A stretch of DNA of 64,000 nucleotides from a virus. The translations under genes and the position numbers were made by a program. The stretch lies in the UHGV virus genome UHGV-0222911; one strand, given 5' to 3'. Under the pieces are notes generated by a model, which saw only the letters and a list, made by a program, of their open reading frames with translations, was not told the DNA's origin and did not search any database. Position 1 is the first letter of the stretch. Each line of letters starts with the position of its first letter. This document shows, piece after piece, positions 2,385 to 20,200 of the stretch.

Positions 2385-10388
<8,004 letters not shown>

Positions 10389-10390
10389 TA

Positions 10391-11578
10391 ATGGCGGTAG
10401 GTGAAATTCAAATTAGTGCCTTGCCTCAAGCAGCCTTACCAATTGACCTTAGTGATATCTTCCATCTTAAGCAGGGTATTGAGGATAAGAGATGTACTCT
10501 TGAGCAATTACTTGCTCCACACTCAAGCCTAAGAAATAACCCTCATGGTGTTACTAAAACACAAATTGGTTTAGATAACGTTATCAATGCTCTTCAGTTA
10601 GTTGCTGCAAATAACTTATCAGACGTTACTAATGTAGTTCAGGCAAGAGCAAATCTACAGATTATGTCTTCAGAAGAGGTTAATAATCTTGTTCAACAGC
10701 ATATTCAGGACAAGAGCAACCCACATAATACAACTAAGGCACAGGTAGGGTTGAGTAATGTTCAGAACTGGACAACATCGAACCTTTATAACGAAGATGC
10801 AGACAAGTACGCTACAGCAAGAGCAGTAAATAACTTGTACAAGGCTGTTCAGGCTTCCTATCCAGTAGGTACTATCCATCTTTCCATGAACTCTGCAAAC
10901 CCTTCTACATATTTAATTTGTGGAGGAACTTGGGAGTTAGTTTCAAAAGGTAGGGCATTGGTTGGCTATGACTCTGATACAAGACCAGCAGGCTCTGTAT
11001 TTGGTGCTTCAACTGTCACTTTGTCAGTTAATAACATGCCTCAACATTCACACTCCGTGTCTCTTAGTGGTGGTGGTCACACTCATAATGCAACTGTGTC
11101 AATTTCAGCTTTTGATTATGGAACTAAGACTACCAACTCTTTTGACTATGGAACAAAGACCACTAACACGACTGGTAACCACAACCATGTTGGCAGTGGG
11201 TCAACAAGTGCTGCTGGTGCTCATAACCACAGATTGACCTATGAATCAGGTGGTGGTTTATCTGAAAGACCTGCAATGGTTTGGTCTTCAAGAAATGACC
11301 AATCATGGTACTCAGCAGATGCTGTCTGTGAAGTCGCTGGTGCTCACAGCCACTCTTTCAGTGTTACCACTAACACAACTGGTAACCACAACCATACGGT
11401 TGGTATTGGTGCTCACAGCCACACAGTTGGTATTGGTTCACATACACACAATGGTACTGTAACAGTTTCTTCTTCTGAGCATACGCATAGCGGGAACACT
11501 AATAGTGTTGGTGGTGGACAAGCTTTCAACATTGAGCAGCCATCCTTTGTACTGTATGTATGGCAGAGAACAGCTTAA
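10391..11578 (+). CDS. tail fibre protein with His-box (HxH) C-terminal tip
   Basis: 395 aa; C-terminal repeats GNHNH, GAHSHTVGIGSHTH, SEHTHSG, FDYGTKTTN duplicated; shares C-terminal motifs with the next gene; HxH boxes are known from T-even long tail fibre tips. Confidence 0.6.
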   Translation: MAVGEIQISALPQAALPIDLSDIFHLKQGIEDKRCTLEQLLAPHSSLRNNPHGVTKTQIGLDNVINALQLVAANNLSDVTNVVQARANLQIMSSEEVNNLVQQHIQDKSNPHNTTKAQVGLSNVQNWTTSNLYNEDADKYATARAVNNLYKAVQASYPVGTIHLSMNSANPSTYLICGGTWELVSKGRALVGYDSDTRPAGSVFGASTVTLSVNNMPQHSHSVSLSGGGHTHNATVSISAFDYGTKTTNSFDYGTKTTNTTGNHNHVGSGSTSAAGAHNHRLTYESGGGLSERPAMVWSSRNDQSWYSADAVCEVAGAHSHSFSVTTNTTGNHNHTVGIGAHSHTVGIGSHTHNGTVTVSSSEHTHSGNTNSVGGGQAFNIEQPSFVLYVWQRTA

Positions 11579-11588
11579 TTTCTTTACA

Positions 11589-11608
11589 GGGGCTTTGTAG
11601 CCCCTTTT
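11589..11608 (+). terminator. hairpin + T-run between the two fibre genes
   Basis: GGGGCT ttgt AGCCCC followed by TTTT. Confidence 0.45.
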
Positions 11609-11624
11609 AAGAGGAAAATTTATA

Positions 11625-14171
11625 ATGGCAGATTACAAGTTGAGTCAATTAAACTCAATCGACACAATTCGTTCAGAAGACCTATTGCACATCAGAGTTA
11701 AGAAAAGACCTGAAATGTTGGGTGACGAAGACCGTAGAATGACCTATCAAGACTTCTTAGCTTCCTTCAAACTAGAAAGGTTTGTTCAGATTGCTGGGAG
11801 TACTATGGTTGGGGACTTAGGTATTGTCAAGTTACTTTACGGTGGTAAGGCAGTATTTGACCCAACAGGCTCTTCTGAGATTACTATTGGGGATATTTTA
11901 AAGACTTTTAAAATCAACTCAAATGGGCTTAAACTCACTATTGCAGATGCCACAAGGTCGGCAACTGTTTATCATACTTTGAATAAACCAAGCCCTAATG
12001 AACTTGGTATGAGAACTAATGAAGAGAATGATGCAAGATATGCAAGGCTTGCTGTTACAAACACATTCTCTGGAACTCAGAACATTCAAGGTGATGCTAA
12101 CTTACTTCGCCTTAGAAACCGAAATGCAAACAATGCACAATACATTGAAGGTGTAAACCAAGATGGTTCAGCTAGATGGTGGGTTGGTATTGGTAGCAAT
12201 GGTTCTGACGAAGTAAAACTGTACAATAACAAATACAACTCAGTCTTGACTGTTGCAAGTAATATCTCTGTTAATAAGTCTTTAGCAATCACTGGACAAG
12301 TTCAACCTTCAGATTTCTCTAACTTAGATGCTAGATATTTTACTCAGACAGTTGCTAATCAGAGATTTGCACAGTTAGCTGGCAATAATACTTTTACAGG
12401 TGCTAACACTTTCACTAACCTTGTTGCTAAGAAGAATGCTAATGCTATTACTTTGCAGAATACTGATGCAAGTACAGCACTTTACATTCTCGGTAAGAAG
12501 TCTGATGGAACAAATAAATGGTATGTTGGTACAGATTCTGATGAGACACGTCTAAACATTTACAACTACCTTACAGGTTCACAGGTTTCACTAGGTACTA
12601 CTATTGGTATCAATAAAACTGTGCAAATCACTGGACAAGTTCAACCTTCAGATTGGGCTAACATTGACTCTAGATATATTCCGGTAGCAACATTAAGTAC
12701 GATTGCAAGAACTAATGCAAGGAATACTTTTAATGGTGTACAGACAGTTGTTACGGATAATGAAGGTCTGATTGTTAAAAACTCTACTCAGAATAGACCA
12801 TTATATATTCGTGGTGTGGACACTACTAATGTATCAAGATGGTGGATTGGTGTTGGTGGTGCTGATACGAATGATGTTACCCTAAATAACAGTTATTCTG
12901 GAACCCAATTGGTTCTCGGGAATACAACATCATACATTAACAAAACATTGACTATTGCTGGACAAGTTCAACCTTCAGATTTTTCTAACTTAGATGCTAG
13001 ATACTTTACGCAAAGTGCTAGTGATAGCAGATACCTAAGAATCAGAAGCACTAGCTTCAATGTGGGAAACACTGAGAAGTGGGCTAAAATTGCCACTGTT
13101 GTGATGCCACAATCAGCATCCACTGCTGTTATTGAGGTATTTGGTGGGTCAGGTTATAATATTAATACACCACAACAAGCAGGTAAATGTGAAATTGTTC
13201 TGCGAACTTCAAATAACAATCCAAAGGGCTTAAATGTTGTTGCTTGGAGAACATCAGATAACACCATTGTCAGGGATATTGGTTATGTGAATACTTCTGG
13301 AGACACCTATGATATTTACTATCTTGCTGGTACGTTTCAAAACAGTACAACGACAAGGGTTCAGTCTTCTAGTAATGCAAGTGTACAGTTGTTTGAAGTC
13401 CCACAGACATTTGATGATGCTCCACAAGATATTGTGAAGGGTACAATTGCAAAATACTACACAAGTTTGCAAAAACCAACCCCTTCAGATATTGGTGCAT
13501 ACACTAAAGCAGAGACTGACCAGAAAATTGCAGAAGCAATTAGTGACTCTACAGACCTGAATAAAATCTACCCAGTAGGTATCGTGACATGGTTTAATAG
13601 TAATGTTAACCCTAATACAGCACTTCCTGGTCTAACTTGGACGTACCTGAATAATGGTGTTGGCAGAACTATTAGAATTGCAGCAGCAAATGGTTCAGAT
13701 GTTGCTACAACTGGTGGTTCAGACTCTGTAACGTTATCTGTTGGTAACTTACCTTCACACACGCATAGTTTCTCTGCTACTACTTCATCATTTGATTATG
13801 GCACTAAGACTTCTAGTACAACTGGTAACCATAACCATAACAGAGGGACTATGGAGATTACTGGTACAGTAGGTTACTTTAGAAGTGACTCTAGCAGCTT
13901 CTACACAGCAAGTGGTGCATTTACACTTGGTAGCTCAACTGCTTCTAAGGGTTTTACTGGCTCTAACTTCACTTATGGTATCCCTGCTAACTTTAATGCG
14001 TCAAGAACTTGGTCTGGTGTAACGAATACAACAGGTAACCACAGCCACACTGTTGGTATTGGTGCTCACAGCCACACAGTTAGCGGTAACACAGGTGGTA
14101 CTGGTTCTGGTTCAGCATTTAGTGTTACTAACCAGTTCTACAAGTTAATGGCTTGGGTAAGAACTGCTTAA
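11625..14171 (+). CDS. long tail fibre protein with three tandem internal repeats and His-box tip
   Basis: 848 aa; three ~110 aa tandem repeats each ending ITGQVQPSD(F/W)xNxDxRY (near-identical DNA at 12291-12347, 12629-12685, 12957-13013); C-terminus has LPSHTHSF, FDYGTKT, TGNHNH, HSHTVGIGAHSHTV like the preceding gene. Confidence 0.65.
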   Translation: MADYKLSQLNSIDTIRSEDLLHIRVKKRPEMLGDEDRRMTYQDFLASFKLERFVQIAGSTMVGDLGIVKLLYGGKAVFDPTGSSEITIGDILKTFKINSNGLKLTIADATRSATVYHTLNKPSPNELGMRTNEENDARYARLAVTNTFSGTQNIQGDANLLRLRNRNANNAQYIEGVNQDGSARWWVGIGSNGSDEVKLYNNKYNSVLTVASNISVNKSLAITGQVQPSDFSNLDARYFTQTVANQRFAQLAGNNTFTGANTFTNLVAKKNANAITLQNTDASTALYILGKKSDGTNKWYVGTDSDETRLNIYNYLTGSQVSLGTTIGINKTVQITGQVQPSDWANIDSRYIPVATLSTIARTNARNTFNGVQTVVTDNEGLIVKNSTQNRPLYIRGVDTTNVSRWWIGVGGADTNDVTLNNSYSGTQLVLGNTTSYINKTLTIAGQVQPSDFSNLDARYFTQSASDSRYLRIRSTSFNVGNTEKWAKIATVVMPQSASTAVIEVFGGSGYNINTPQQAGKCEIVLRTSNNNPKGLNVVAWRTSDNTIVRDIGYVNTSGDTYDIYYLAGTFQNSTTTRVQSSSNASVQLFEVPQTFDDAPQDIVKGTIAKYYTSLQKPTPSDIGAYTKAETDQKIAEAISDSTDLNKIYPVGIVTWFNSNVNPNTALPGLTWTYLNNGVGRTIRIAAANGSDVATTGGSDSVTLSVGNLPSHTHSFSATTSSFDYGTKTSSTTGNHNHNRGTMEITGTVGYFRSDSSSFYTASGAFTLGSSTASKGFTGSNFTYGIPANFNASRTWSGVTNTTGNHSHTVGIGAHSHTVSGNTGGTGSGSAFSVTNQFYKLMAWVRTA

Positions 14172-14250
14172 TCACTTGTTGACTGATTGTTAAGATGGTG
14201 TTAATATTCTTTATGGGTATTCTCACCATCTTGGCTGATGAGGTGATTAA

Positions 14251-14448
14251 ATGCCTACAATCCTAGCAATTCTTCTAAAAAATCTAGGTAACTTCTTCTG
14301 GAAACTCATTTTATCCCTTCTAAGTGAATACATGATTGAGAAAGTGTTCTTTAAGCTTGCAAGATATCTTGCGAGTAAAACAGACACACCTATTGATGAT
14401 GAGTTCGTAGATAACTTAGAAAAAGCTTTTAAGGGGGAGAATAAATGA
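14251..14448 (+). CDS. small membrane protein (holin-like candidate)
   Basis: 65 aa, hydrophobic N-terminal segment (ILAILLKNLGNFFWKLILSLL), charged C-terminus. Confidence 0.3.
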   Translation: MPTILAILLKNLGNFFWKLILSLLSEYMIEKVFFKLARYLASKTDTPIDDEFVDNLEKAFKGENK

Positions 14449-14816
14449 AGTGGCTAGAGGAAGCTTTTAAAAATAATATTGGTACAATTGTAGTTGGTAT
14501 TTTTAGTGTTATTGGGATGTATACCACCATGCAAGTCTCGGATGGTAAGCAAGAAGTGTCTGTCACAACAAAGTTACAGCAGCTAGATAATTATAGCAAG
14601 TCTAATTACTCAGCTATTCGTGATTTACAGTCTGACATGAGACTGATTCAGCTAGGGATGGAGAACCAGAAAGTTCAGTTAGAGAATGTTAAGGGTGAGA
14701 ACGCAAAACTTACTAAAACTCTGGATAAATTCTCTGACAGTGTGAACAATCTGGCTCAATCAGTATCAGCCTTGCAAGCTATTACTGAAAAGAACACAAA
14801 GAATACTGAAAAATAA
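14445..14816 (+). CDS. membrane-anchored coiled-coil protein
   Basis: 123 aa, one TM segment (IGTIVVGIFSVIGMY) then coiled-coil-like region; overlapping start with previous ORF. Confidence 0.3.
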   Translation: MKWLEEAFKNNIGTIVVGIFSVIGMYTTMQVSDGKQEVSVTTKLQQLDNYSKSNYSAIRDLQSDMRLIQLGMENQKVQLENVKGENAKLTKTLDKFSDSVNNLAQSVSALQAITEKNTKNTEK

Positions 14817-14823
14817 AATTTAA

Positions 14824-14853
14824 GGCTCCTTTTTACGGGAGCCTTTTTGTTTT
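14824..14853. terminator. bidirectional terminator between convergent genes
   Basis: GGCTCC ttttta cGGGAGCC hairpin with T-runs on both sides. Confidence 0.55.
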
Positions 14854-15751
14854 ACTTGCCTACTGACAGAGGTGCTTCAATCTTTCCTGCATGTTGGTAG
14901 TTATTAATCCCACCAATAAAATCACTTGCTGTAAGATGTTTTAAGTCACTTAAAGTATTAAGTGGTAGACCAATCTCAAAAGTTGGTGCATGGAACTCTT
15001 CGTTGTTCATCAGTTCATAAACCTGCTTCATATGGTTCTGATAAATCTGAGTATCTCCAAAGACACCTATCAAGTACCGTGGAGTGTATCCAGTCATCTT
15101 ACAAAGAACTTCCAGAATAAAACCGTAAGATGCAATATTAAACGGAAGTCCTAAAAAGGTGTCTACTGAACGCTGATACCATTGTAAATCAACTTCACCC
15201 TCATTAGTAATATAAATCTGAAACAGAACATGACAAGGTGCTAAAGCCATTGAGTTTGCTGCAATATCTGCTGCATTCCAAGCATTAACAAGCATGTAAC
15301 GGTCTGTGATATCACCCTTCATCTTTGTTACTAATGTATCTAGTTGGTCTACAACACAACCGTTATGACCTTCAAAGTTTCTCCACTGAACCCCATAGAT
15401 TCTTCCACCTGCATCCTCTAACCAATCTTGTTCAGAAGAATAATTAGAGCTTAACCAGCGTTTAAAATCATCTGACCAGATAGTCCAGCGTTCCCCATCA
15501 TTTTCACCCCAAGTGCGGTAACGGAGTTCACCCAGCTTATTCTCACCGTTCAGGAACCATAAAGCTTCCCCAATAACTTGTCGTGTAAACACCTGTTTAG
15601 AAGTTAAGAGTGGGAAACCAGTTCGCATATCAAAACGAAACTGAGGTGGAGCAAATGCAGAGATAACATCTCCAGTTCGTGTAGTACGCAGTTCACCAAC
15701 TGATAAAACATGGTTCAGAATATTTTTGTAACTTGTATCTGCTTGTGACAT
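14852..15751 (-). CDS. thyA: thymidylate synthase (ThyA type)
   Basis: 299 aa; classical ThyA motifs (EALWFLNGEN, DLQWYQRSVD, LGLPFNIASYG). Confidence 0.9.
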   Translation of the reverse strand: MSQADTSYKNILNHVLSVGELRTTRTGDVISAFAPPQFRFDMRTGFPLLTSKQVFTRQVIGEALWFLNGENKLGELRYRTWGENDGERWTIWSDDFKRWLSSNYSSEQDWLEDAGGRIYGVQWRNFEGHNGCVVDQLDTLVTKMKGDITDRYMLVNAWNAADIAANSMALAPCHVLFQIYITNEGEVDLQWYQRSVDTFLGLPFNIASYGFILEVLCKMTGYTPRYLIGVFGDTQIYQNHMKQVYELMNNEEFHAPTFEIGLPLNTLSDLKHLTASDFIGGINNYQHAGKIEAPLSVGK

Positions 15752-15752
15752 A

Positions 15753-16298
15753 TCAAAAGTGTCCTTTTACTTGTGGAACATAAATTTCAAAGGTTGCTTT
15801 ACCATCCTCTGATGGTTTTGACTGTACCTTTGTAAATACACGGTTATCATACAGCTTCTCAAAGAAGTTTTCAAAAGGTAAATACACAGTGGCCTCTTCA
15901 GTAACTTTATGGAAAACTGTATGGAAAACTACACCAGCATATGGTAAAGCATTGACAAGGACACCTGCACCACCAATTACAAAGACATCTTCATCAATAG
16001 AGCTATCAAGATACTTCAAAAATGCTCCAAAGGATTCTTTGCTGGCCTTAGCATACATTACCTCATCTTTGCCAAAATCTATGCCTAAGTATGGTACAGA
16101 ATTTGTTAAGATGAGGTTTGCACGTTCTGGTAAAGGTTTACTACCAAGAGTCTTGAAAGTCTCATTCCCCATTACTACTAAGTTGTTTTTAGTGAGCCTC
16201 TTAAACTCTTGCATATCTTGTTTATGTCGAGGCCACGGCATACCAGTTGGAGTACCAAACTCCCCATTTTCACCACTTGCAAAGATTAATTTAATCAT
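15753..16298 (-). CDS. folA: dihydrofolate reductase
   Basis: 181 aa; DHFR N-terminal signature (IFASGENGEFG...MPWPRHKQD...VVMGNETFKTLG); adjacent to thyA. Confidence 0.85.
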   Translation of the reverse strand: MIKLIFASGENGEFGTPTGMPWPRHKQDMQEFKRLTKNNLVVMGNETFKTLGSKPLPERANLILTNSVPYLGIDFGKDEVMYAKASKESFGAFLKYLDSSIDEDVFVIGGAGVLVNALPYAGVVFHTVFHKVTEEATVYLPFENFFEKLYDNRVFTKVQSKPSEDGKATFEIYVPQVKGHF

Positions 16299-16555
16299 TT
16301 TGTAAATCCTTTCTTAATGAACCAGTTGATAACATTCTTCACCGCTTTATTGCTATGATAGATTAAGTGTGGTGCAGGTTGGTATGAACCATAAGCCCAG
16401 AAAGCAATAATTTCACTACACCCTGTACACCTTGTACTCTCTTCAGCAATATGACCGTTGACTATTTCACTTACCTCACCTTGTAAGTCTGTGCATCCAC
16501 AATGTGGACAACGGATAGGTGCTCCGTCAGACTCATAGCAGTGTTCAATTTTCAT
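16295..16555 (-). CDS. small zinc-ribbon protein
   Basis: 86 aa with CPHCGC...CTGC cysteine pairs. Confidence 0.35.
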   Translation of the reverse strand: MKIEHCYESDGAPIRCPHCGCTDLQGEVSEIVNGHIAEESTRCTGCSEIIAFWAYGSYQPAPHLIYHSNKAVKNVINWFIKKGFTK

Positions 16556-17071
16556 TTATTTAACCTCAAAAACTGGTTCAAGAACCAATATAAAGTCTAC
16601 ACAGTCATCTTCTTCATCCAGAATACCATCAAAGTTCTTAGGAACGAAGTCGAAGAGACTCATCACAAAGCAGTCAGAAGTAACCCTGATAGTTCCTCCG
16701 ATGTTCTCTACAGTTAACACTGTACGACTTTCTTTTACCTCTCGCAAAAGATTACTCACAAAGTCATCTAAGAAGTACTTCATCAGTGACTTAAAACCTT
16801 TAGGGTAATCTGTACCAGAGTATGTTTCAATCTGAGGTACAAGCTTAACATTTATACTAGTCTTTGTTAAGAATGTGCTAGAGAACATACTATCAGGTAA
16901 CTTACAAACAGTCTTTCCAGTGCCTTCATGTTCAATCTCAACAAAACCAGCTTCATCGCCACATGTAACTATTTTAAAAGATGCTTCATTATCACCCTGT
17001 GAAGCCATAAACTTTTTAAGCATCTCTTTAAGGAAATCTGCATGAGCATCTTGTAAGTAGATATCAATCAT
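16556..17071 (-). CDS. hypothetical protein
   Basis: 171 aa ORF, coupled to neighbours. Confidence 0.4.
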   Translation of the reverse strand: MIDIYLQDAHADFLKEMLKKFMASQGDNEASFKIVTCGDEAGFVEIEHEGTGKTVCKLPDSMFSSTFLTKTSINVKLVPQIETYSGTDYPKGFKSLMKYFLDDFVSNLLREVKESRTVLTVENIGGTIRVTSDCFVMSLFDFVPKNFDGILDEEDDCVDFILVLEPVFEVK

Positions 17072-17084
17072 AGTTAATCACCTA

Positions 17085-17444
17085 TTATGGGAACAGACAC
17101 TTGATGTCATCATTTTTGAAAACGAAGCTTGTGTAGTTGTGACCATCAACATCCAGCCAAACAGCCTGAACATCTACACCATCAAGATTGTGGTAAAGCT
17201 CTTTGATGAAGTGGTCTTTCACAATCTGGCTGCTAGTTGTTTCCAGCTTAATGTTTGAGATTGCTGAACCTACAGCCATATAACCCATGACACGTTTCTT
17301 CTCAGTATGCTTAATCTTACCATCTTTGTAAGCCATAATGAGATTGGAAAGAATCTTCACACCATAATACTTTTCAAGGTGAGTTGGTACACCATAAAAG
17401 CCTAATGCGAAGTTTTCAGAGTGGATAATATTTTCACGTTTCAT
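17085..17444 (-). CDS. hypothetical protein
   Basis: 119 aa ORF. Confidence 0.4.
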   Translation of the reverse strand: MKRENIIHSENFALGFYGVPTHLEKYYGVKILSNLIMAYKDGKIKHTEKKRVMGYMAVGSAISNIKLETTSSQIVKDHFIKELYHNLDGVDVQAVWLDVDGHNYTSFVFKNDDIKCLFP

Positions 17445-17445
17445 A

Positions 17446-17775
17446 TTAATCTGCCAGCCTTAAATTAAAATTAACACCAAATTTTTCGCATACTTCCAAC
17501 ATATACTCAAGGGAGACATTACCAGTGAGGTGGATTATGTTGGATACACGAGCCTGAGAGATACCACAAATTTTAGCAACTTGCTCTTGAGAAAGACCTC
17601 TGGATTTAATCTCTCTCTTAAAACGATGTGCAACGAAATCTCTCATTTCGTCTACATCCATTGGACAAATATAACTCTCCATTTCAGCCTCTCTGTCAGC
17701 CTCCCAATCATCTTGTGGAGCATAAGGGTCAAAAACCTCATTCATCTTTCTTCTTCCGTTTGCGTGAAGTGTCAA
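17446..17775 (-). CDS. helix-turn-helix DNA-binding protein candidate
   Basis: 109 aa; HTH-like segment GLSQEQVAKICGISQARVSNIIH. Confidence 0.4.
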   Translation of the reverse strand: MTLHANGRRKMNEVFDPYAPQDDWEADREAEMESYICPMDVDEMRDFVAHRFKREIKSRGLSQEQVAKICGISQARVSNIIHLTGNVSLEYMLEVCEKFGVNFNLRLAD

Positions 17776-17950
17776 TCAATGAATCTATGTTTGTAGCCCT
17801 AACCTTTTCACGTTCATCGTTAAGATAATCATCAAGAACCTTTTCAATCTGTGAATCATCTTGACAGATAACTGTAAAGACTGTAAAGCCGTCTGTATCG
17901 TCAATTATCTTACCATAACCGCTTCTGGGATGTAACTTTTTAAGAGCCAT
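17738..17950 (-). CDS. hypothetical protein
   Basis: 70 aa ORF overlapping start of next gene. Confidence 0.3.
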   Translation of the reverse strand: MALKKLHPRSGYGKIIDDTDGFTVFTVICQDDSQIEKVLDDYLNDEREKVRATNIDSLIDTSRKRKKKDE

Positions 17951-17951
17951 A

Positions 17952-18335
17952 TCAAATACCTGTGCAGCTTCTGTTTTCTAAGAAATACTCAACACCATAC
18001 ATAGCTTTTTGCATCAAATCTTCTTTAAACTGGATACGGTGGTTGAGCATCGCCTGTACATCAATATCGTCATGGTGTTTCTCTTTAATGTTTGCAGATT
18101 GCAGGAAATACTCTGCAAGAACACGATACTGGTAGTCAGTCACCTTATCAGTCATCTCTGTCAAAGATTCTTCAGATATTGGTTTAAGTAGCTCACCATT
18201 AGCTAGAGCAACACCTTTTACAATCTGGCAAGTGTCTTCTGGAACACCTGATAAGTCCACATTTGGAAGTTCTGTTGCATTGACTGGTAAATTCATTGCC
18301 ATAACCATTGCAGCAGCTAATAAAATCTTTTTCAT
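17952..18335 (-). CDS. secreted/periplasmic protein (signal peptide)
   Basis: 127 aa; N-terminal signal peptide MKKILLAAAMVMAMNLPVNA. Confidence 0.45.
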   Translation of the reverse strand: MKKILLAAAMVMAMNLPVNATELPNVDLSGVPEDTCQIVKGVALANGELLKPISEESLTEMTDKVTDYQYRVLAEYFLQSANIKEKHHDDIDVQAMLNHRIQFKEDLMQKAMYGVEYFLENRSCTGI

Positions 18336-18379
18336 AATGACCTCAAAGTTATATTAAATTTTGTATTACATTGAGTATA

Positions 18380-18408
18380 AAAATAAGCTATAACACCTGA
18401 CTTGTCAA
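18380..18408 (-). promoter_or_regulatory. sigma70-like promoter candidate for gene 17952..18335
   Basis: On minus strand TTGACA - 17 nt - TATTTT, AT-rich upstream. Confidence 0.35.
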
Positions 18409-18463
18409 CAGACTTTATAGCTTATTTGGCAGATTTTTTATAAGGCTACTGCCATCCTTCCAT

Positions 18464-18498
18464 ACCAAACCCGACCTCACCTCACCCCACCTCACCTT
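18464..18498. repeat. phased pentamer array 1: (ACCNN)x7 on plus strand
   Basis: accaa acccg acctc acctc acccc acctc acctt, strict 5-nt phase. Confidence 0.8.
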
Positions 18499-18519
18499 AT
18501 TAAAAGACCCTCTTAAAGA

Positions 18520-18548
18520 CCTTTTAAAAAGGAGCCTCCGAAGAGGCT
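18520..18548 (-). terminator. rho-independent terminator for gene 18560..19000
   Basis: Minus strand AGCCTC UUCG GAGGCU hairpin followed by CCTTTTT. Confidence 0.6.
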
Positions 18549-18559
18549 ACCTCGTCAAC

Positions 18560-19000
18560 TTAGAAAGGTTTTCTGCGTTGCTTGTTAATGTTAGCTTTCA
18601 TAGCAGCTAAATGGTTTTGCTGTTCAATCAGTCGTGAACGTTCTTGATGACTAAGTGCCATAGTGTTCACATTCTCAATTGCTTGAGTGGCTTGCTTTAA
18701 AGCTCGACCAATCTTACCAGACATTTTACGTTTTGCAATAGTTGCTTGATGCTTAGGTTCAACCACACGATAACCAACACCCATTGAAGCAACCAGATAA
18801 ATCTTCTCTTCTTTAAGAAGCTTTTCAATAAACTTCTCAAGTCGGTTTAGACGTGTAAGTGCATAAGCCTTCATTTCATCTTCGTACTTAACAATGTCAC
18901 CTTGATAAGTTGGCTTCACAATACCTAAGAAGGTGTCCATCTCAGAATGTGATACAGTGTCACCGTAACTAAACTTTGCTGCTAATGCTTTTGTATTCAT
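18560..19000 (-). CDS. hypothetical protein
   Basis: 146 aa ORF. Confidence 0.45.
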   Translation of the reverse strand: MNTKALAAKFSYGDTVSHSEMDTFLGIVKPTYQGDIVKYEDEMKAYALTRLNRLEKFIEKLLKEEKIYLVASMGVGYRVVEPKHQATIAKRKMSGKIGRALKQATQAIENVNTMALSHQERSRLIEQQNHLAAMKANINKQRRKPF

Positions 19001-19002
19001 AA

Positions 19003-19608
<606 letters not shown>

Positions 19609-19702
19609 TTAGTTGATTGTTAAGTTGTTTGTAAAGAACCCTCAACAGAAGACTCTTTAGAAACTTGGTAGATTTTTAACGTGGCTACTACCATCCACCC
19701 AT

Positions 19703-19792
19703 ACATTACCGGACTTTACCCCACCATGCCGAACCACACCTGACCAAACAACACCACACCGTACCAAACCTTACCCAACCAGACCTTATCTT
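19703..19792. repeat. phased pentamer array 2: 18 consecutive pentamers, 16 beginning ACC/AC
   Basis: acatt accgg acttt acccc accat gccga accac acctg accaa acaac accac accgt accaa acctt accca accag acctt atctt. Confidence 0.8.
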
Positions 19793-19864
19793 ATTAAAAG
19801 ACCCTCTTAAAGACCTTTTAAAAAGGTAAGTCTCATTTTAATGTAGCTGAGACTAACTACCCGC

Positions 19865-19954
19865 ACTTTACCGCACCGGACCTTACCGGACCGCACATCA
19901 CCGCACTAAACCGGACATCACATTACCCGACCACACCAAACCAAACACCACATT
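19865..19954. repeat. phased pentamer array 3: 18 consecutive pentamers all beginning AC
   Basis: acttt accgc accgg acctt accgg accgc acatc accgc actaa accgg acatc acatt acccg accac accaa accaa acacc acatt. Confidence 0.8.
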
Positions 19955-20019
19955 ACTTAAAAAACCTCTTAGAAGACTCTTAAGTGATGCTGGTGAGTAC
20001 CCGTTGGTTTATGCTGCTC

Positions 20020-20047
20020 AGTATACTCACCAAATTTTCTATGTCAA
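20020..20047 (-). promoter_or_regulatory. near-consensus sigma70 promoter on minus strand, reading into pentamer array 3
   Basis: Minus strand TTGACA - 16 nt - TATACT. Confidence 0.55.
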
Positions 20048-20050
20048 CAA

Positions 20051-20200
20051 CTTTTATAAAAAAGTTCTGATAGCTATATGCGTCACGAAACAAAAGATTG
20101 TAAACAAGACACCCATTGCAAAGGATGTGTTCAAAAGCTTACTTGTGATGTAAGACAACACAAAGATAACTAATGCAAACAGAATGATTGTACTTAACAT
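20051..20200 (-). CDS. small hydrophobic protein (49 aa, two predicted TM segments)
   Basis: ATG 3 nt after ligase stop; MLSTIILFALVIFVLSYITSKLLNTSFAMGVLFTIFCFVTHIAIRTFL; below ORF-track size cutoff, no clear SD. Confidence 0.25.

What the first reader, a model, noticed from the sequence alone, without database searches (positions are those of the whole stretch)
10391..14171. Two tail fibre genes sharing a His-box tip, the longer one built from near-identical tandem repeats
Both proteins end with the same set of motifs (L(P/M)xH(S/T)HS, FDYGTKT, TGNHNH, GAHSHTVGIG...). The 848-aa fibre contains three ~110-aa tandem repeats with almost identical DNA (12291-12347, 12629-12685, 12957-13013). Long identical repeats within and between fibre genes are substrates for recombination that can change fibre length or swap tips, a plausible host-range switch.
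Basis: partly seen in the sequence, partly recalled or inferred. Interest (0 to 1): 0.45.

Follow-up and report, generated by a model that had tools for sequence, protein, structure and literature searches.

The report
Felix O1-type phage tail fibre pair
These are the already known short and long tail fibre genes of a Felix O1-like E. coli phage; both end in a T4-like histidine-rich tip, and relatives show that their parts, including the tips, get swapped by recombination at short conserved junctions.

Summary
The two ORFs are real: 10391-11578 (395 aa) and 11625-14171 (848 aa). They are orthologues of tail fibre genes 82 and 83 of Felixounavirus wV8 (about 91% DNA identity).

Both C-termini are homologous to each other (36% identity, E 1e-21) and to the solved T4 gp37 receptor-binding tip, 2XGF. 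That tip has a collar and an HxH "needle". The short fibre has 9 HxH motifs and the long one has 4.

The long fibre has three ~110-aa repeats (Pfam gp37_trimer, with a fold like the T7 gp17 pyramid domain). In this window they are not near-identical: 34-41% protein identity and 53-57% DNA identity. Only a 24-29 nt core is exact, and only a 30-nt His-box stretch is exact between the two genes.

The recombination idea holds up in comparison with relatives. In 120 homologues, three repeat cassettes, a middle domain and the tip occur as discrete alleles that assort independently. Their breakpoints lie at the conserved cores and His boxes. One relative has two repeats. Two relatives carry 281-300 nt identical intragenic copies. 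A near-identical phage contig (99.9%) has its long-fibre tip replaced by a 258-nt exact copy of its own short-fibre tip.

Any effect on host range is untested. The genes, the T4 similarity and the mosaic pattern are already published, so interest is modest.

The parts
10391..11578 (+). Short tail fibre gene (395 aa), orthologue of wV8 gene 82, VpaE1 gp74 and Sf14 gp52
   Evidence: ORF. phrog_2097 tail fibre, E 2e-136. Pfam Gp10_C, 68.7 bits against a cut-off of 27. Synteny and annotation in wV8. Residues 146-367 match the T4 gp37 tip 2XGF, E 1e-26.
10826..11188 (+). Short fibre collar (aa 146-214) and outbound half of the His-box needle (aa 215-266). HxH motifs at aa 219, 230, 264, plus 278 just beyond. 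FDYGTKTTN is duplicated in tandem.
   Evidence: Alignment to 2XGF and to T4 gp10. HxH positions. 30-nt tandem repeat at 11109-11167.
11189..11344 (+). Short fibre tip cassette (aa 267-318), the exchangeable distal head
   Evidence: In short-fibre homologues P0134-P0138 this segment drops to 21-25% identity while most flanking segments stay at 86-100% (lowest 70%). This cassette is the core of the 258-nt tract (11171-11428) copied into the long fibre of L001.
11345..11578 (+). Short fibre return half of the needle (HxH at aa 319, 333, 342, 351, 364) and C-terminal end
   Evidence: 27-nt tandem repeat at 11380-11450.
11399..11428 (+). 30-nt His-box patch (VGIGAHSHTV), identical to 14052-14081 in the long fibre. 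It is the right-hand junction of the tip swap.
   Evidence: (D2).
11625..14171 (+). Long tail fibre gene (848 aa), orthologue of wV8 gene 83, which was found in virions as a 91.5 kDa protein by mass spectrometry
   Evidence: ORF. phrog_4277, 1357 bits, full length. wV8 annotation. wV8 paper PMC2674420.
11625..12017 (+). Conserved N-terminal region (aa 1-131); presumed baseplate attachment
   Evidence: 91-100% identical in all 120 homologues. The attachment role is an inference from the fibre literature.
12018..12356 (+). Repeat 1 (aa 132-244). The variable cassette is about 12047-12296.
   Evidence: The AF2 model gives a 5-stranded beta unit with pLDDT 85-91. Foldseek matches the T7 gp17 pyramid domain 4A0U, rmsd 1.8 A over 67 columns.
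12357..12683 (+). Repeat 2 (aa 245-353). The variable cassette is about 12379-12635.
   Evidence: In L004 only this block is replaced.
12684..13022 (+). Repeat 3 (aa 354-466). The variable cassette is about 12713-12983.
   Evidence: It is absent from the two-repeat variant P0063.
12292..12315 (+). 24-nt junction core of repeat 1 (CTGGACAAGTTCAACCTTCAGATT, encoding GQVQPSD)
   Evidence: Exact in all three repeats. 0-4 mismatches in relatives. It marks the right end of the cassette blocks.
12631..12654 (+). 24-nt junction core of repeat 2
12958..12981 (+). 24-nt junction core of repeat 3
13023..13559 (+). Middle domain (aa 467-645). It is a beta-sandwich followed by the conserved neck QKPTPSDIGAYTKAETDQKIAEA. 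The swappable block is about 13006-13472.
   Evidence: Alleles at 97, 85, 72 and 28% identity. Replaced in L007. AF2 pLDDT 60-90 for aa 467-611. Foldseek hits WceF 6TGF (E 7e-6) and Acinetobacter phage tailspikes.
13560..13844 (+). Long fibre collar (aa 646-705) and outbound His boxes (HxH at aa 712 and 736)
   Evidence: 93-100% conserved. Aligned to the short fibre. Pfam Gp10_C scores 25.2 bits, just under the cut-off of 27.
13845..14024 (+). Long fibre tip cassette (aa 741-800, NRGTMEITG... type, without histidines)
   Evidence: 78 distinct tip sequences among 121 proteins. Replaced in L001, L003 and L009.
14025..14171 (+). Long fibre return His boxes (HxH at aa 806 and 815) and conserved C-terminal end. 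Includes the 30-nt patch 14052-14081.

Best explanation
The region encodes the two lateral tail fibres of a Felixounavirus, a Felix O1-like myovirus closest to the wV8 / E. coli O157 typing phage group.

Both proteins are presumed homotrimers. Both end in the module solved for T4 gp37. That module has a collar, then a needle in which the chain runs out and back and HxH motifs from the three chains stack to bind metal ions, with a small variable head at the turn. The short fibre has 9 HxH motifs (4 out, 5 back). The long fibre has 4 (2 out, 2 back).

The long fibre's shaft adds three stacked pyramid-like beta domains (the ~110-aa repeats) and a beta-sandwich middle domain.

The genes are built as cassettes. 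Variable stretches are flanked by short patches conserved even at synonymous sites. The variable stretches are the three repeat faces, the middle domain and the tip. The patches are NTFxG, (T/A)GQVQPSD..N.D.RY and the His boxes TGNHNH and TGNH(N/S)HTVGIGAHSHTV.

Homologous recombination at these patches exchanges single cassettes between co-infecting relatives. Because the patches are repeated within and between the two genes, recombination out of register also occurs. It copies one repeat over another, deletes a repeat, or copies the short-fibre tip into the long fibre.

Shown here: homology, architecture, the mosaic pattern and the natural recombinants. Inferred: trimer and metal binding (from T4 gp37), LPS as the receptor (from the literature), and any change of host range.
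For: Identity:
- 230 phage records match, nearly all Felixounavirus. wV8 covers 96% of the region at 90.6% identity, under its annotated tail fibre genes 82 and 83.
- wV8 Gp83 was found in virions by mass spectrometry (PMC2674420).
- Cryo-EM of the related phage Sf14 places both a 391-aa and a 792-aa fibre on the particle (PMC11821841).

Tip:
- Short fibre aa 146-367 matches 2XGF residues 18-228, E 1e-26, with the HxH motifs aligned. Long fibre aa 706-827 matches at E 4e-7.
- The two fibres match each other at E 1e-21.

Repeats:
- PF20744 matches three times, E 2e-74.
- The AF2 model gives three 5-stranded units that resemble the T7 gp17 pyramid domain, E 7e-4, rmsd 1.8 A.

Mosaic:
- Each module occurs as discrete alleles in free combination, between conserved N-terminus, collar and return His box. 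Examples: P0013 differs only in R1, P0012 only in R2, P0051 only in the middle domain, P0015 only in the tip.
- DNA identity jumps from about 100% to about 45% at 12047-12296, 12379-12635, 12713-12983, 13006-13472 and 13775-14084. The ends of these blocks fall on the conserved patches.
- The patches are conserved in relatives with 0-5 mismatches, except that the short-fibre His box is not found in L009 within 5 mismatches. They show excess synonymous identity.

Out-of-register events:
- 26 cassette alleles were found, 4 of them at more than one repeat position. P0032 has a hybrid repeat joined at RWWxGxG.
- P0063 has two repeats.
- L003 has a 300-nt copy at 99% identity, one unit apart. L008 has a 281-nt copy at 100% identity.

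Tip transfer:
- L001 matches the window with 1 mismatch in the 8.2 kb upstream of the long-fibre tip. In the roughly 6 kb downstream of it there are two further substitutions and a 6-nt indel.
- The tip itself is replaced by a 258-nt exact copy of the short-fibre sequence 11171-11428.
- D1-2 long fibre aa 720-783 is 63/64 identical to SPJ41 short fibre aa 248-311.
Against: - In this window the identical patches are only 24-30 nt long, which is short for efficient homologous recombination.
- The left junction of the L001 swap has only 11 nt of exact identity, which points to microhomology or a mismatch-tolerant event.
- The L001 chimera was seen on one metagenome contig only. Its junction is absent from IMG/VR and the JGI metagenomes, and no GenBank phage or complete E. 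coli genome carries the whole arrangement.
- L001, L002, L003 and L008 are metagenome assemblies; reads were not inspected.
- The conserved patches are also structurally important (metal-binding His, trimer necks). Protein constraint therefore explains part of their conservation.
- The synonymous-site excess is significant but rests on few codons.
- The monomer AF2 model of the collar and needle was unusable, with pLDDT below 50. Trimer and metal binding therefore rest on homology alone.
- No formal recombination test (GARD, PHI) was run.
Confidence: 0.8

Rival explanations
1. There is common descent and structural constraint only. The two genes are old paralogues whose shared motifs persist because the fold needs them. 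The patchwork among relatives reflects fast diversifying selection on exposed segments, not recombination at the motifs.
For: The conserved motifs are exactly those expected to be structural: the HxH rungs aligned to T4 gp37 and the invariant necks between predicted beta units. The repeats in this window have diverged to 34-41% identity, as old duplications would.
Against: - Alleles are discrete and assort independently. Some relatives are 98-100% identical in DNA everywhere except one cassette, which sits at about 45%. Point mutation cannot produce that.
- The same cassette allele occurs at different repeat positions.
- There are 281-300 nt copies at 99-100% identity inside one gene.
- A 258-nt exact copy of the short-fibre tip sits in a long fibre of an otherwise 99.9% identical phage.
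- Synonymous identity is in excess in the patches.
Confidence: 0.08
2. The apparent within-genome events are assembly artefacts of metagenomes. These events are the L001 tip swap, the two-repeat variant and the identical intragenic copies. On this view only ordinary exchange of whole modules between different phages is real.
For: L001, L002, L003 and L008 are all metagenome contigs. L002 has only about 6.7x coverage and the gene lies 29 nt from the contig end. The L001 junction was not found anywhere else. The right junction is a 30-nt shared stretch that a small-k assembly graph could cross.
Against: - The left junction of L001 shares only 11 exact bases, too few for a k-mer graph to jump.
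- Assemblers collapse repeats rather than create 281-300 nt duplicates.
- All the variants keep the reading frame.
- Sequenced isolates carry the same tip module on opposite fibres: D1-2 long fibre and SPJ41 short fibre, 63/64 identical. Salmonella phage long-fibre tips are 81-87% identical to the short-fibre tip of P0140.
Confidence: 0.12
3. This is a programmed switching device: an invertible segment as in Mu or P1, a diversity-generating retroelement, or slippage-type phase variation that toggles fibre specificity during growth.
For: There are two fibre genes with alternative tips side by side, and repeats inside the gene. A 17-nt inverted repeat brackets the repeat 2 cassette (12360-12376 / 12617-12633).
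Against: - Both genes lie on the same strand with their own starts and stops.
- Both fibres are present together on the related Sf14 virion.
- No long inverted repeats were found.
- No invertase or reverse transcriptase was among the adjacent genes scanned against Pfam and PHROGs or in the wV8 annotation of this stretch.
- The 17-nt inverted repeat is found only with one R2 allele.
- The repeat units are 327-339 nt and diverged, not slippage-prone.
Confidence: 0.02

Closest known systems
Tail fibre genes 82 and 83 of Escherichia phage wV8, with their Felix O1, VpaE1 (gp74/gp75) and Shigella phage Sf14 (gp52/gp53) counterparts
   Same: Same gene order: baseplate J-like gene, DUF2612 gene, 100-aa ORF, short fibre, long fibre, two small ORFs, then convergent td and frd. 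DNA identity is about 91%, and the long fibre has the same length, 848 aa. The wV8 paper already noted blocks of similarity separated by dissimilar blocks with both termini conserved. The VpaE1 paper noted T4 gp37 homology in both C-termini. Sf14 cryo-EM shows both fibres on the virion and no chaperone gene.
   Different: The short fibre is a different allele here: 395 aa against 391 aa, with 50-90% DNA identity to most relatives over 10391-11350. Among the papers I read, none describes the fine cassette map, the junction patches or the transfer of a tip between the two fibres.
Receptor-binding tip of T4 long tail fibre protein gp37 (PDB 2XGF)
   Same: Collar plus HxH needle plus distal head. 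The short fibre aligns over 211 of the 242 residues of the crystallised fragment, E 1e-26, including FDYGTK and all seven HxH motifs.
   Different: There are 9 HxH motifs (short fibre) or 4 (long fibre) instead of 7. The head sequences are unrelated. No gp38- or gp57A-like chaperone gene sits next to the fibres. The fibre is a single protein rather than the gp34-37 chain. The reported receptor of this phage group is LPS core.
Recombination between conserved motifs in the T-even distal fibre locus (Tetart, Desplats and Krisch 1998, J Mol Biol 282:543; the title was seen and the full reference, with its citing sentence on gp38 glycine-rich motifs)
   Same: Short conserved motifs flank hypervariable segments and act as crossover points that swap adhesin specificity. 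That the 1998 paper's motifs include gp37 His boxes is my recollection; I did not read that paper.
   Different: This is a different phage family. Here the motifs are repeated within one gene and between two paralogous fibre genes of the same genome. That allows out-of-register and gene-to-gene conversion, and shaft cassettes are exchanged as well as the tip.
Pyramid domain of T7 fibre gp17 (PDB 4A0T/4A0U) and the repeated domains of T4 gp34 (5NXH)
   Same: Each ~110-aa repeat is predicted as a small 5-stranded beta unit that superposes on the gp17 pyramid domain (rmsd 1.8 A, 25% identity, E 7e-4). There is a weaker match to gp34. The Sf14 paper made the same comparison for its long fibre.
   Different: There are three units in tandem rather than one. 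The comparison rests on a monomer model, with pLDDT 85-94 in the units and below 60 in the linkers.
Invertible fibre segments of Mu (G segment) and P1 (C segment)
   Same: Two alternative fibre specificities are encoded side by side in one myovirus.
   Different: There are no inverted repeats and no invertase, both genes are on the same strand, and both fibres are assembled together.

Membership tests
Felixounavirus short/long tail fibre pair (wV8 82/83) | Close sequence identity to the annotated genes, and the same neighbourhood | tested here: met
   wV8 covers 96% of 10391-14171 at 90.6% identity. The gene order is identical. The best protein homologues are 97-99% identical.
Felixounavirus short/long tail fibre pair (wV8 82/83) | The product is a structural component of the virion | not testable with these tools
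   Shown for orthologues only: wV8 Gp83 by mass spectrometry, VpaE1 virion proteome, Sf14 cryo-EM.
T4 gp37-type receptor-binding tip (2XGF) | Significant sequence match across the collar and needle | tested here: met
   Short fibre E 1e-26 (aa 146-367 against residues 18-228 of 242). Long fibre E 4e-7 (aa 706-827).
T4 gp37-type receptor-binding tip (2XGF) | Several HxH motifs on the outbound and return strands of the needle | tested here: met
   Short fibre 4 + 5, long fibre 2 + 2. Long-fibre homologues have 4 or 6 (two truncated ones have 2). The motifs align with those of T4.
T4 gp37-type receptor-binding tip (2XGF) | Intertwined homotrimer with metal ions held by six histidines | not testable with these tools
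   The monomer AF2 model of aa 640-848 had pLDDT below 50. No multimer prediction or metal data were available.
T4 gp37-type receptor-binding tip (2XGF) | Dedicated assembly chaperone (gp38 / gp57A) encoded nearby | tested here: not met
   The downstream ORFs 14251-14448 and 14445-14816 hit only PHROGs of unknown function. The Sf14 paper reports no chaperone homologues in that genome. Only the neighbouring genes were checked, not the whole window.
Pfam PF20744 gp37_trimer | Score above the Pfam gathering cut-off | tested here: met
   246 bits against a cut-off of 21.7, three stretches.
Pfam PF21939 Gp10_C (collar) | Score above the Pfam gathering cut-off | tested here: met
   Short fibre: 68.7 bits against 27 (met). 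Long fibre: 25.2 bits, just under the cut-off. It is tied to the family through its E 1e-21 match to the short fibre.
Motif-mediated modular exchange of fibre adhesins (T-even model) | Variable segments flanked by conserved motifs, with breakpoints at those motifs | tested here: met
   Junctions of the L001 swap lie in TGNHNH and VGIGAHSHTV.
Motif-mediated modular exchange of fibre adhesins (T-even model) | Exchange changes receptor or host specificity | not tested
   No phenotype data were examined. There is only a loose link between tip type and the named host.
Invertible-segment or retroelement host-range switches | Inverted repeats plus an invertase, or a reverse transcriptase with template repeat | tested here: not met
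   No inverted repeat longer than 22 nt in 9000-15000. The neighbouring genes are baseplate genes, small ORFs, td and frd.

The most novel reading that the evidence does not exclude
The conserved nucleotide patches are not only by-products of protein constraint. They are kept alike at the DNA level, by frequent conversion or by selection, so that the two fibre genes of Felixounaviruses work as a plug-and-play cassette system. Any of five modules can be replaced. A phage can also copy the tip of its short fibre onto its long fibre (or the reverse) within its own genome, and so re-target a fibre in one step.
Probability: 0.3. Interest if true: 0.5.

Novelty: already known. Interest (0 to 1): 0.3.

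Why it matters
Felix O1-type phages are used for Salmonella diagnostics and for biocontrol of E. coli O157 and Salmonella, yet how they recognise hosts is still described as unresolved.

A base-level map of the exchangeable parts of both fibres, with their natural junctions, gives ready-made splice points for engineering host range. It also explains why fibre genes are the main difference between otherwise near-identical isolates.

The natural copy of a short-fibre tip on a long fibre suggests that the tip works independently of the shaft that carries it. None of this changes what is known about the kind of system involved.

Tried and rejected
- Tandem Repeats Finder on 9000-16000 did not report the ~330-nt repeats, only short 27-30 nt ones in the short fibre. 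The repeats are too diverged, which counts against 'near-identical'.
- An exact search for the L001 left junction (41 nt) found nothing in IMG/VR or the JGI metagenomes.
- Megablast of the chimeric tip against GenBank phages returned only partial hits, at most 73% of the query; the best ones fall under annotated tail fibre genes and match the short-fibre-derived part of the query. There was no hit in complete E. coli genomes. The chimera is therefore a single observation.
- The AF2 monomer model of aa 467-848 was usable only for aa 467-611. The collar and needle came out below pLDDT 50, so no structural claim about the tip rests on it.
- An invertible segment or retroelement was considered and rejected.
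- The 17-nt inverted repeat around the repeat 2 cassette was followed up. It is tied to one allele and is not a general feature.
- I did not run the representative-protein search, a third homologue search or a formal recombination test.
- I did not check the window for phage recombinase genes.

Full report
**What is there.** Upstream lie a baseplate J-like gene, a DUF2612 baseplate gene and a 100-aa ORF. Downstream lie two small ORFs, a bidirectional terminator-like hairpin at 14822-14845, and convergent thymidylate synthase and dihydrofolate reductase genes.

Megablast of 10391-14171 finds 230 phage records, almost all Felixounavirus from Escherichia, Salmonella and Shigella. The best is wV8, with 96% covered at 90.6% identity. 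There the matches fall under gene 82 ('putative tail fiber protein GP37') and gene 83 ('putative tail fiber protein'), in the same gene order. The closest protein clusters are 97-99% identical. These are therefore orthologues of a known gene pair.

**What is already published.** The wV8 paper identified Gp83 (91.5 kDa) in virions by mass spectrometry. [quoted passage not shown] The VpaE1 paper reported that the C-termini of both fibre proteins resemble the T4 gp37 adhesin, and that the phage uses LPS core (PMC4690856). Cryo-EM of the related Ounavirinae phage Sf14 placed both a 391-aa and a 792-aa fibre on the particle and found no chaperone homologues (PMC11821841). The BASEL paper still calls Felix O1 host recognition elusive (PMC8594841).

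**The shared tip.** The two C-termini align at 36% identity, E 1e-21. Against solved structures, the short fibre (aa 146-367) matches the crystallised T4 gp37 tip, 2XGF, over residues 18-228 of 242, E 1e-26. The FDYGTK motif and every HxH motif of T4 are aligned. The same region also matches the T4 gp10 C-terminal domain. The long fibre (aa 706-827) matches 2XGF at E 4e-7.

From established knowledge of 2XGF, this module is an intertwined trimer: a collar, a needle whose HxH motifs bind metal ions, and a small head at the turn. The short fibre has nine HxH motifs (four outbound, five on the return strand). The long fibre has four (two and two). T4 has seven. Long-fibre homologues have four or six, apart from two truncated ones with two. 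Two short in-frame tandem duplications in the short fibre account for its extra rungs: FDYGTKTTN twice and VGIGxHxHT twice. Trimer formation and metal binding are inferred. The monomer AlphaFold model of this part was unusable.

**The repeats.** The long fibre has three tandem units, aa 132-244, 245-353/357 and 354-466. Pfam PF20744 (gp37_trimer) matches three stretches, E 2e-74. They are not near-identical in this window: 34-41% identity as protein and 53-57% as DNA. Tandem Repeats Finder misses them.

What is identical is a 24-29 nt core, CTGGACAAGTTCAACCTTCAGATT, at 12292, 12631 and 12958. It encodes GQVQPSD at the end of each unit. Between the two genes, the longest identity is 30 nt: 11399-11428 equals 14052-14081, encoding VGIGAHSHTV.

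These patches are more alike than the protein requires. In the core, 9 of 13 codons are the same in all three repeats against 3.5 expected, including a rare GGA glycine codon (P about 0.001). In the His box, 14 of 19 codons are the same against 8.4 expected (P about 0.009).

An AlphaFold model of aa 132-470 gives three 5-stranded beta units (pLDDT 85-94) joined by low-confidence linkers that contain the conserved motifs. Foldseek matches a unit to the pyramid domain of T7 fibre gp17 (4A0U, rmsd 1.8 A over 67 columns, E 7e-4) and more weakly to T4 gp34. Residues 467-611 model as a beta-sandwich. It resembles a domain of the tailspike-like protein WceF (6TGF, E 7e-6) and of Acinetobacter phage tailspikes.

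**Test of the recombination idea.** I compared the long fibre with its 120 best homologues, segment by segment. The N-terminus (91-100%) and collar (93-100%) are conserved throughout, and the return His box in most homologues (69-100% in full-length proteins). Repeat 1, repeat 2, repeat 3, the middle domain and the tip each fall into discrete classes. Examples are about 96 or 55% for repeat 1, 99/60/50% for repeat 2, 97/85/72/28% for the middle domain, and 100/80/20% for the tip. These classes combine freely. Some relatives differ from the window in one module only: P0013 in repeat 1, P0012 in repeat 2, P0051 in the middle domain and P0015 in the tip.

At the DNA level, in nine fetched relatives, identity steps from about 100% to about 45% and back. 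The blocks are 12047-12296, 12379-12635, 12713-12983, 13006-13472 and 13775-14084. The right ends of the three repeat blocks fall on the 24-nt cores. Their left ends fall on the NTFxG patch (AATACTTTTAxxGGTG, D10). The tip block is bounded by TGNHNH and by the 30-nt His box. The patches are conserved in relatives with 0-5 mismatches, except that the short-fibre His box was not found in L009. The short fibre shows the same behaviour: in P0134-P0138 the tip drops to 21-25% identity while most flanking segments stay at 86-100%, the lowest being 70%.

**Out-of-register events.** Clustering 362 repeat cassettes gives 26 alleles. Most are tied to one repeat position, but four occur at two positions. 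P0032 carries a hybrid of a repeat 3 front and a repeat 1 back, joined at RWWxGxG (patch D5).

Repeat-to-repeat identity is normally 0.3-0.45. It reaches 0.94 in P0065, 0.87 in P0071, 0.71 in P0096 and 0.63 in P0032. At the DNA level, L003 has a 300-nt copy at 99% identity exactly one unit (339 nt) apart, and L008 has a 281-nt copy at 100% identity.

One homologue of 120, P0063 (740 aa), has two repeats. It keeps repeat 1 and a repeat 2 allele otherwise seen only at position 2, and it lacks repeat 3.

**Tip transfer between the two genes.** Contig L001 is an 88.9-kb ENA metagenome scaffold. It matches window 5625-20171 with one mismatch in the 8.2 kb upstream of the long-fibre tip. In the roughly 6 kb downstream of it there are two further substitutions and one 6-nt indel. 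The long-fibre tip itself is different: it is replaced by a 258-nt exact copy of the phage's own short-fibre sequence (window 11171-11428). The protein is 100% identical to the short fibre over 82 residues.

The left junction lies in ACTGGTAACCA (11 exact bases, within TGNHNH). The right junction lies in the 30-nt His box. The window's own tip is the common allele, identical in P0012, P0031 and P0086, so L001 is the derived form. An 11-base left junction is too short for a k-mer assembly graph to cross, which argues against an artefact. However, the junction was found nowhere else, so this remains a single observation.

Independent support comes from sequenced isolates. The long fibre of Salmonella phage D1-2 (aa 720-783) is 63/64 identical to the short fibre of phage SPJ41 (aa 248-311). 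Several Salmonella phage long-fibre tips are 81-87% identical to the short-fibre tip of P0140.

**Interpretation.** The best-supported picture is two co-assembled fibres with T4 gp37-type tips. Their genes are strings of cassettes separated by short junctions conserved at the DNA level. Recombination at those junctions swaps cassettes between phages. Because the junctions are repeated, it also converts, duplicates or deletes repeats and moves tips between the two genes.

This is the logic proposed for T-even phages by Tetart, Desplats and Krisch (1998). I saw the title and the full reference. The citing review describes the conserved gp38 glycine-rich motifs as recombination hotspots. That the 1998 paper's motifs include gp37 His boxes is my own recollection.

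The structural sense is that a swap bounded by equivalent outbound and return His boxes exchanges a self-contained 'distal needle plus head' unit. That is an inference.

Rivals are weak. Constraint alone cannot explain the stepwise identity profiles or the exact copies. Assembly artefact cannot explain the isolate data or the 11-nt junction. A programmed switch lacks inverted repeats, an invertase or a retroelement.

The host-range consequence is not shown. Tips of the NRGTMEITG type occur only in records labelled E. coli or Shigella, and Salmonella phages carry other types. Some E. coli phages also carry non-NRG tips.

**Verdict.** The object is already known. The new details are the cassette map, the junction patches and the natural short-to-long tip conversion. 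They are useful for engineering but unsurprising to a specialist.

Noticed in passing
window 14095 (between 14095 and 14096): A 6-nt GGTACT indel (an extra Gly-Thr in a GTGTGSGS stretch). Apart from the replaced tip tract, it is one of only three differences between the window and the near-identical contig L001: this indel plus single-base changes at 14484 and 14652. It looks like slippage in a short tandem repeat.
   Followed up: partly
window 12360-12376 and 12617-12633: A 17-nt inverted repeat (16/17 complementary) brackets the repeat 2 cassette. None appeared in 20 shuffles of the gene. In relatives, a recognisable right arm occurs only with repeat 2 cassettes of the window's type or close to it, and it is missing in L002, L003, L004 and L008. 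It is therefore not a general feature, and its meaning is unknown.
   Followed up: yes
window 11109-11167 and 11380-11450: Two short in-frame tandem duplications in the short fibre: 30-nt period (FDYGTKTTN twice) and 27-nt period (VGIGxHxHT twice). They sit on the outbound and return strands of the needle and would lengthen it by a rung on each strand. The short fibre has 9 HxH motifs against 7 in T4 gp37.
   Followed up: partly
window 13023-13457 (long fibre aa 467-611): The middle domain models as a beta-sandwich resembling a domain of the tailspike-like WceF (6TGF, E 7e-6) and of Acinetobacter phage tailspikes, with weak hits to carbohydrate-binding modules. It may be a lateral glycan-binding module. 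It is also one of the swapped modules, and the 785-790 aa variants carry an unrelated replacement with Pfam gp37_C.
   Followed up: partly
L003 1767-5577 (ENA HAYD20-1 scaffold_24): The short fibre gene is mostly 90-100% identical to the window (85% at one point), while the long fibre gene next to it is strongly divergent in repeats 2 and 3, the middle domain and the tip. The two fibre genes therefore assort independently.
   Followed up: partly
L003 3669-4307 and L008 3436-4376: Relatives carry long near-identical direct repeats inside the long fibre gene: 300 nt at 99% identity, 339 nt apart (L003), and 281 nt at 100% identity, 660 nt apart (L008). These point to recent copying of one repeat over another.
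   Followed up: yes
window 14251-14448, 14445-14816, 14822-14845: Two small ORFs follow the long fibre: 65 aa (phrog_402; Pfam Phage_PM2_Gpl in relatives) and 123 aa (phrog_4038), both of unknown function. A bidirectional terminator-like hairpin then separates them from the convergent td and frd genes. Neither ORF resembles a known fibre chaperone.
   Followed up: partly
window 10086-10388: A 100-aa ORF lies directly upstream of the short fibre. Its start overlaps the stop of the preceding baseplate gene (ATGA). It matches phrog_4141 (unknown function) and is conserved in all relatives fetched. The Sf14 paper tentatively lists a protein at this position as a T4 gp11 homologue, so it may be a fibre adaptor.
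   Followed up: no
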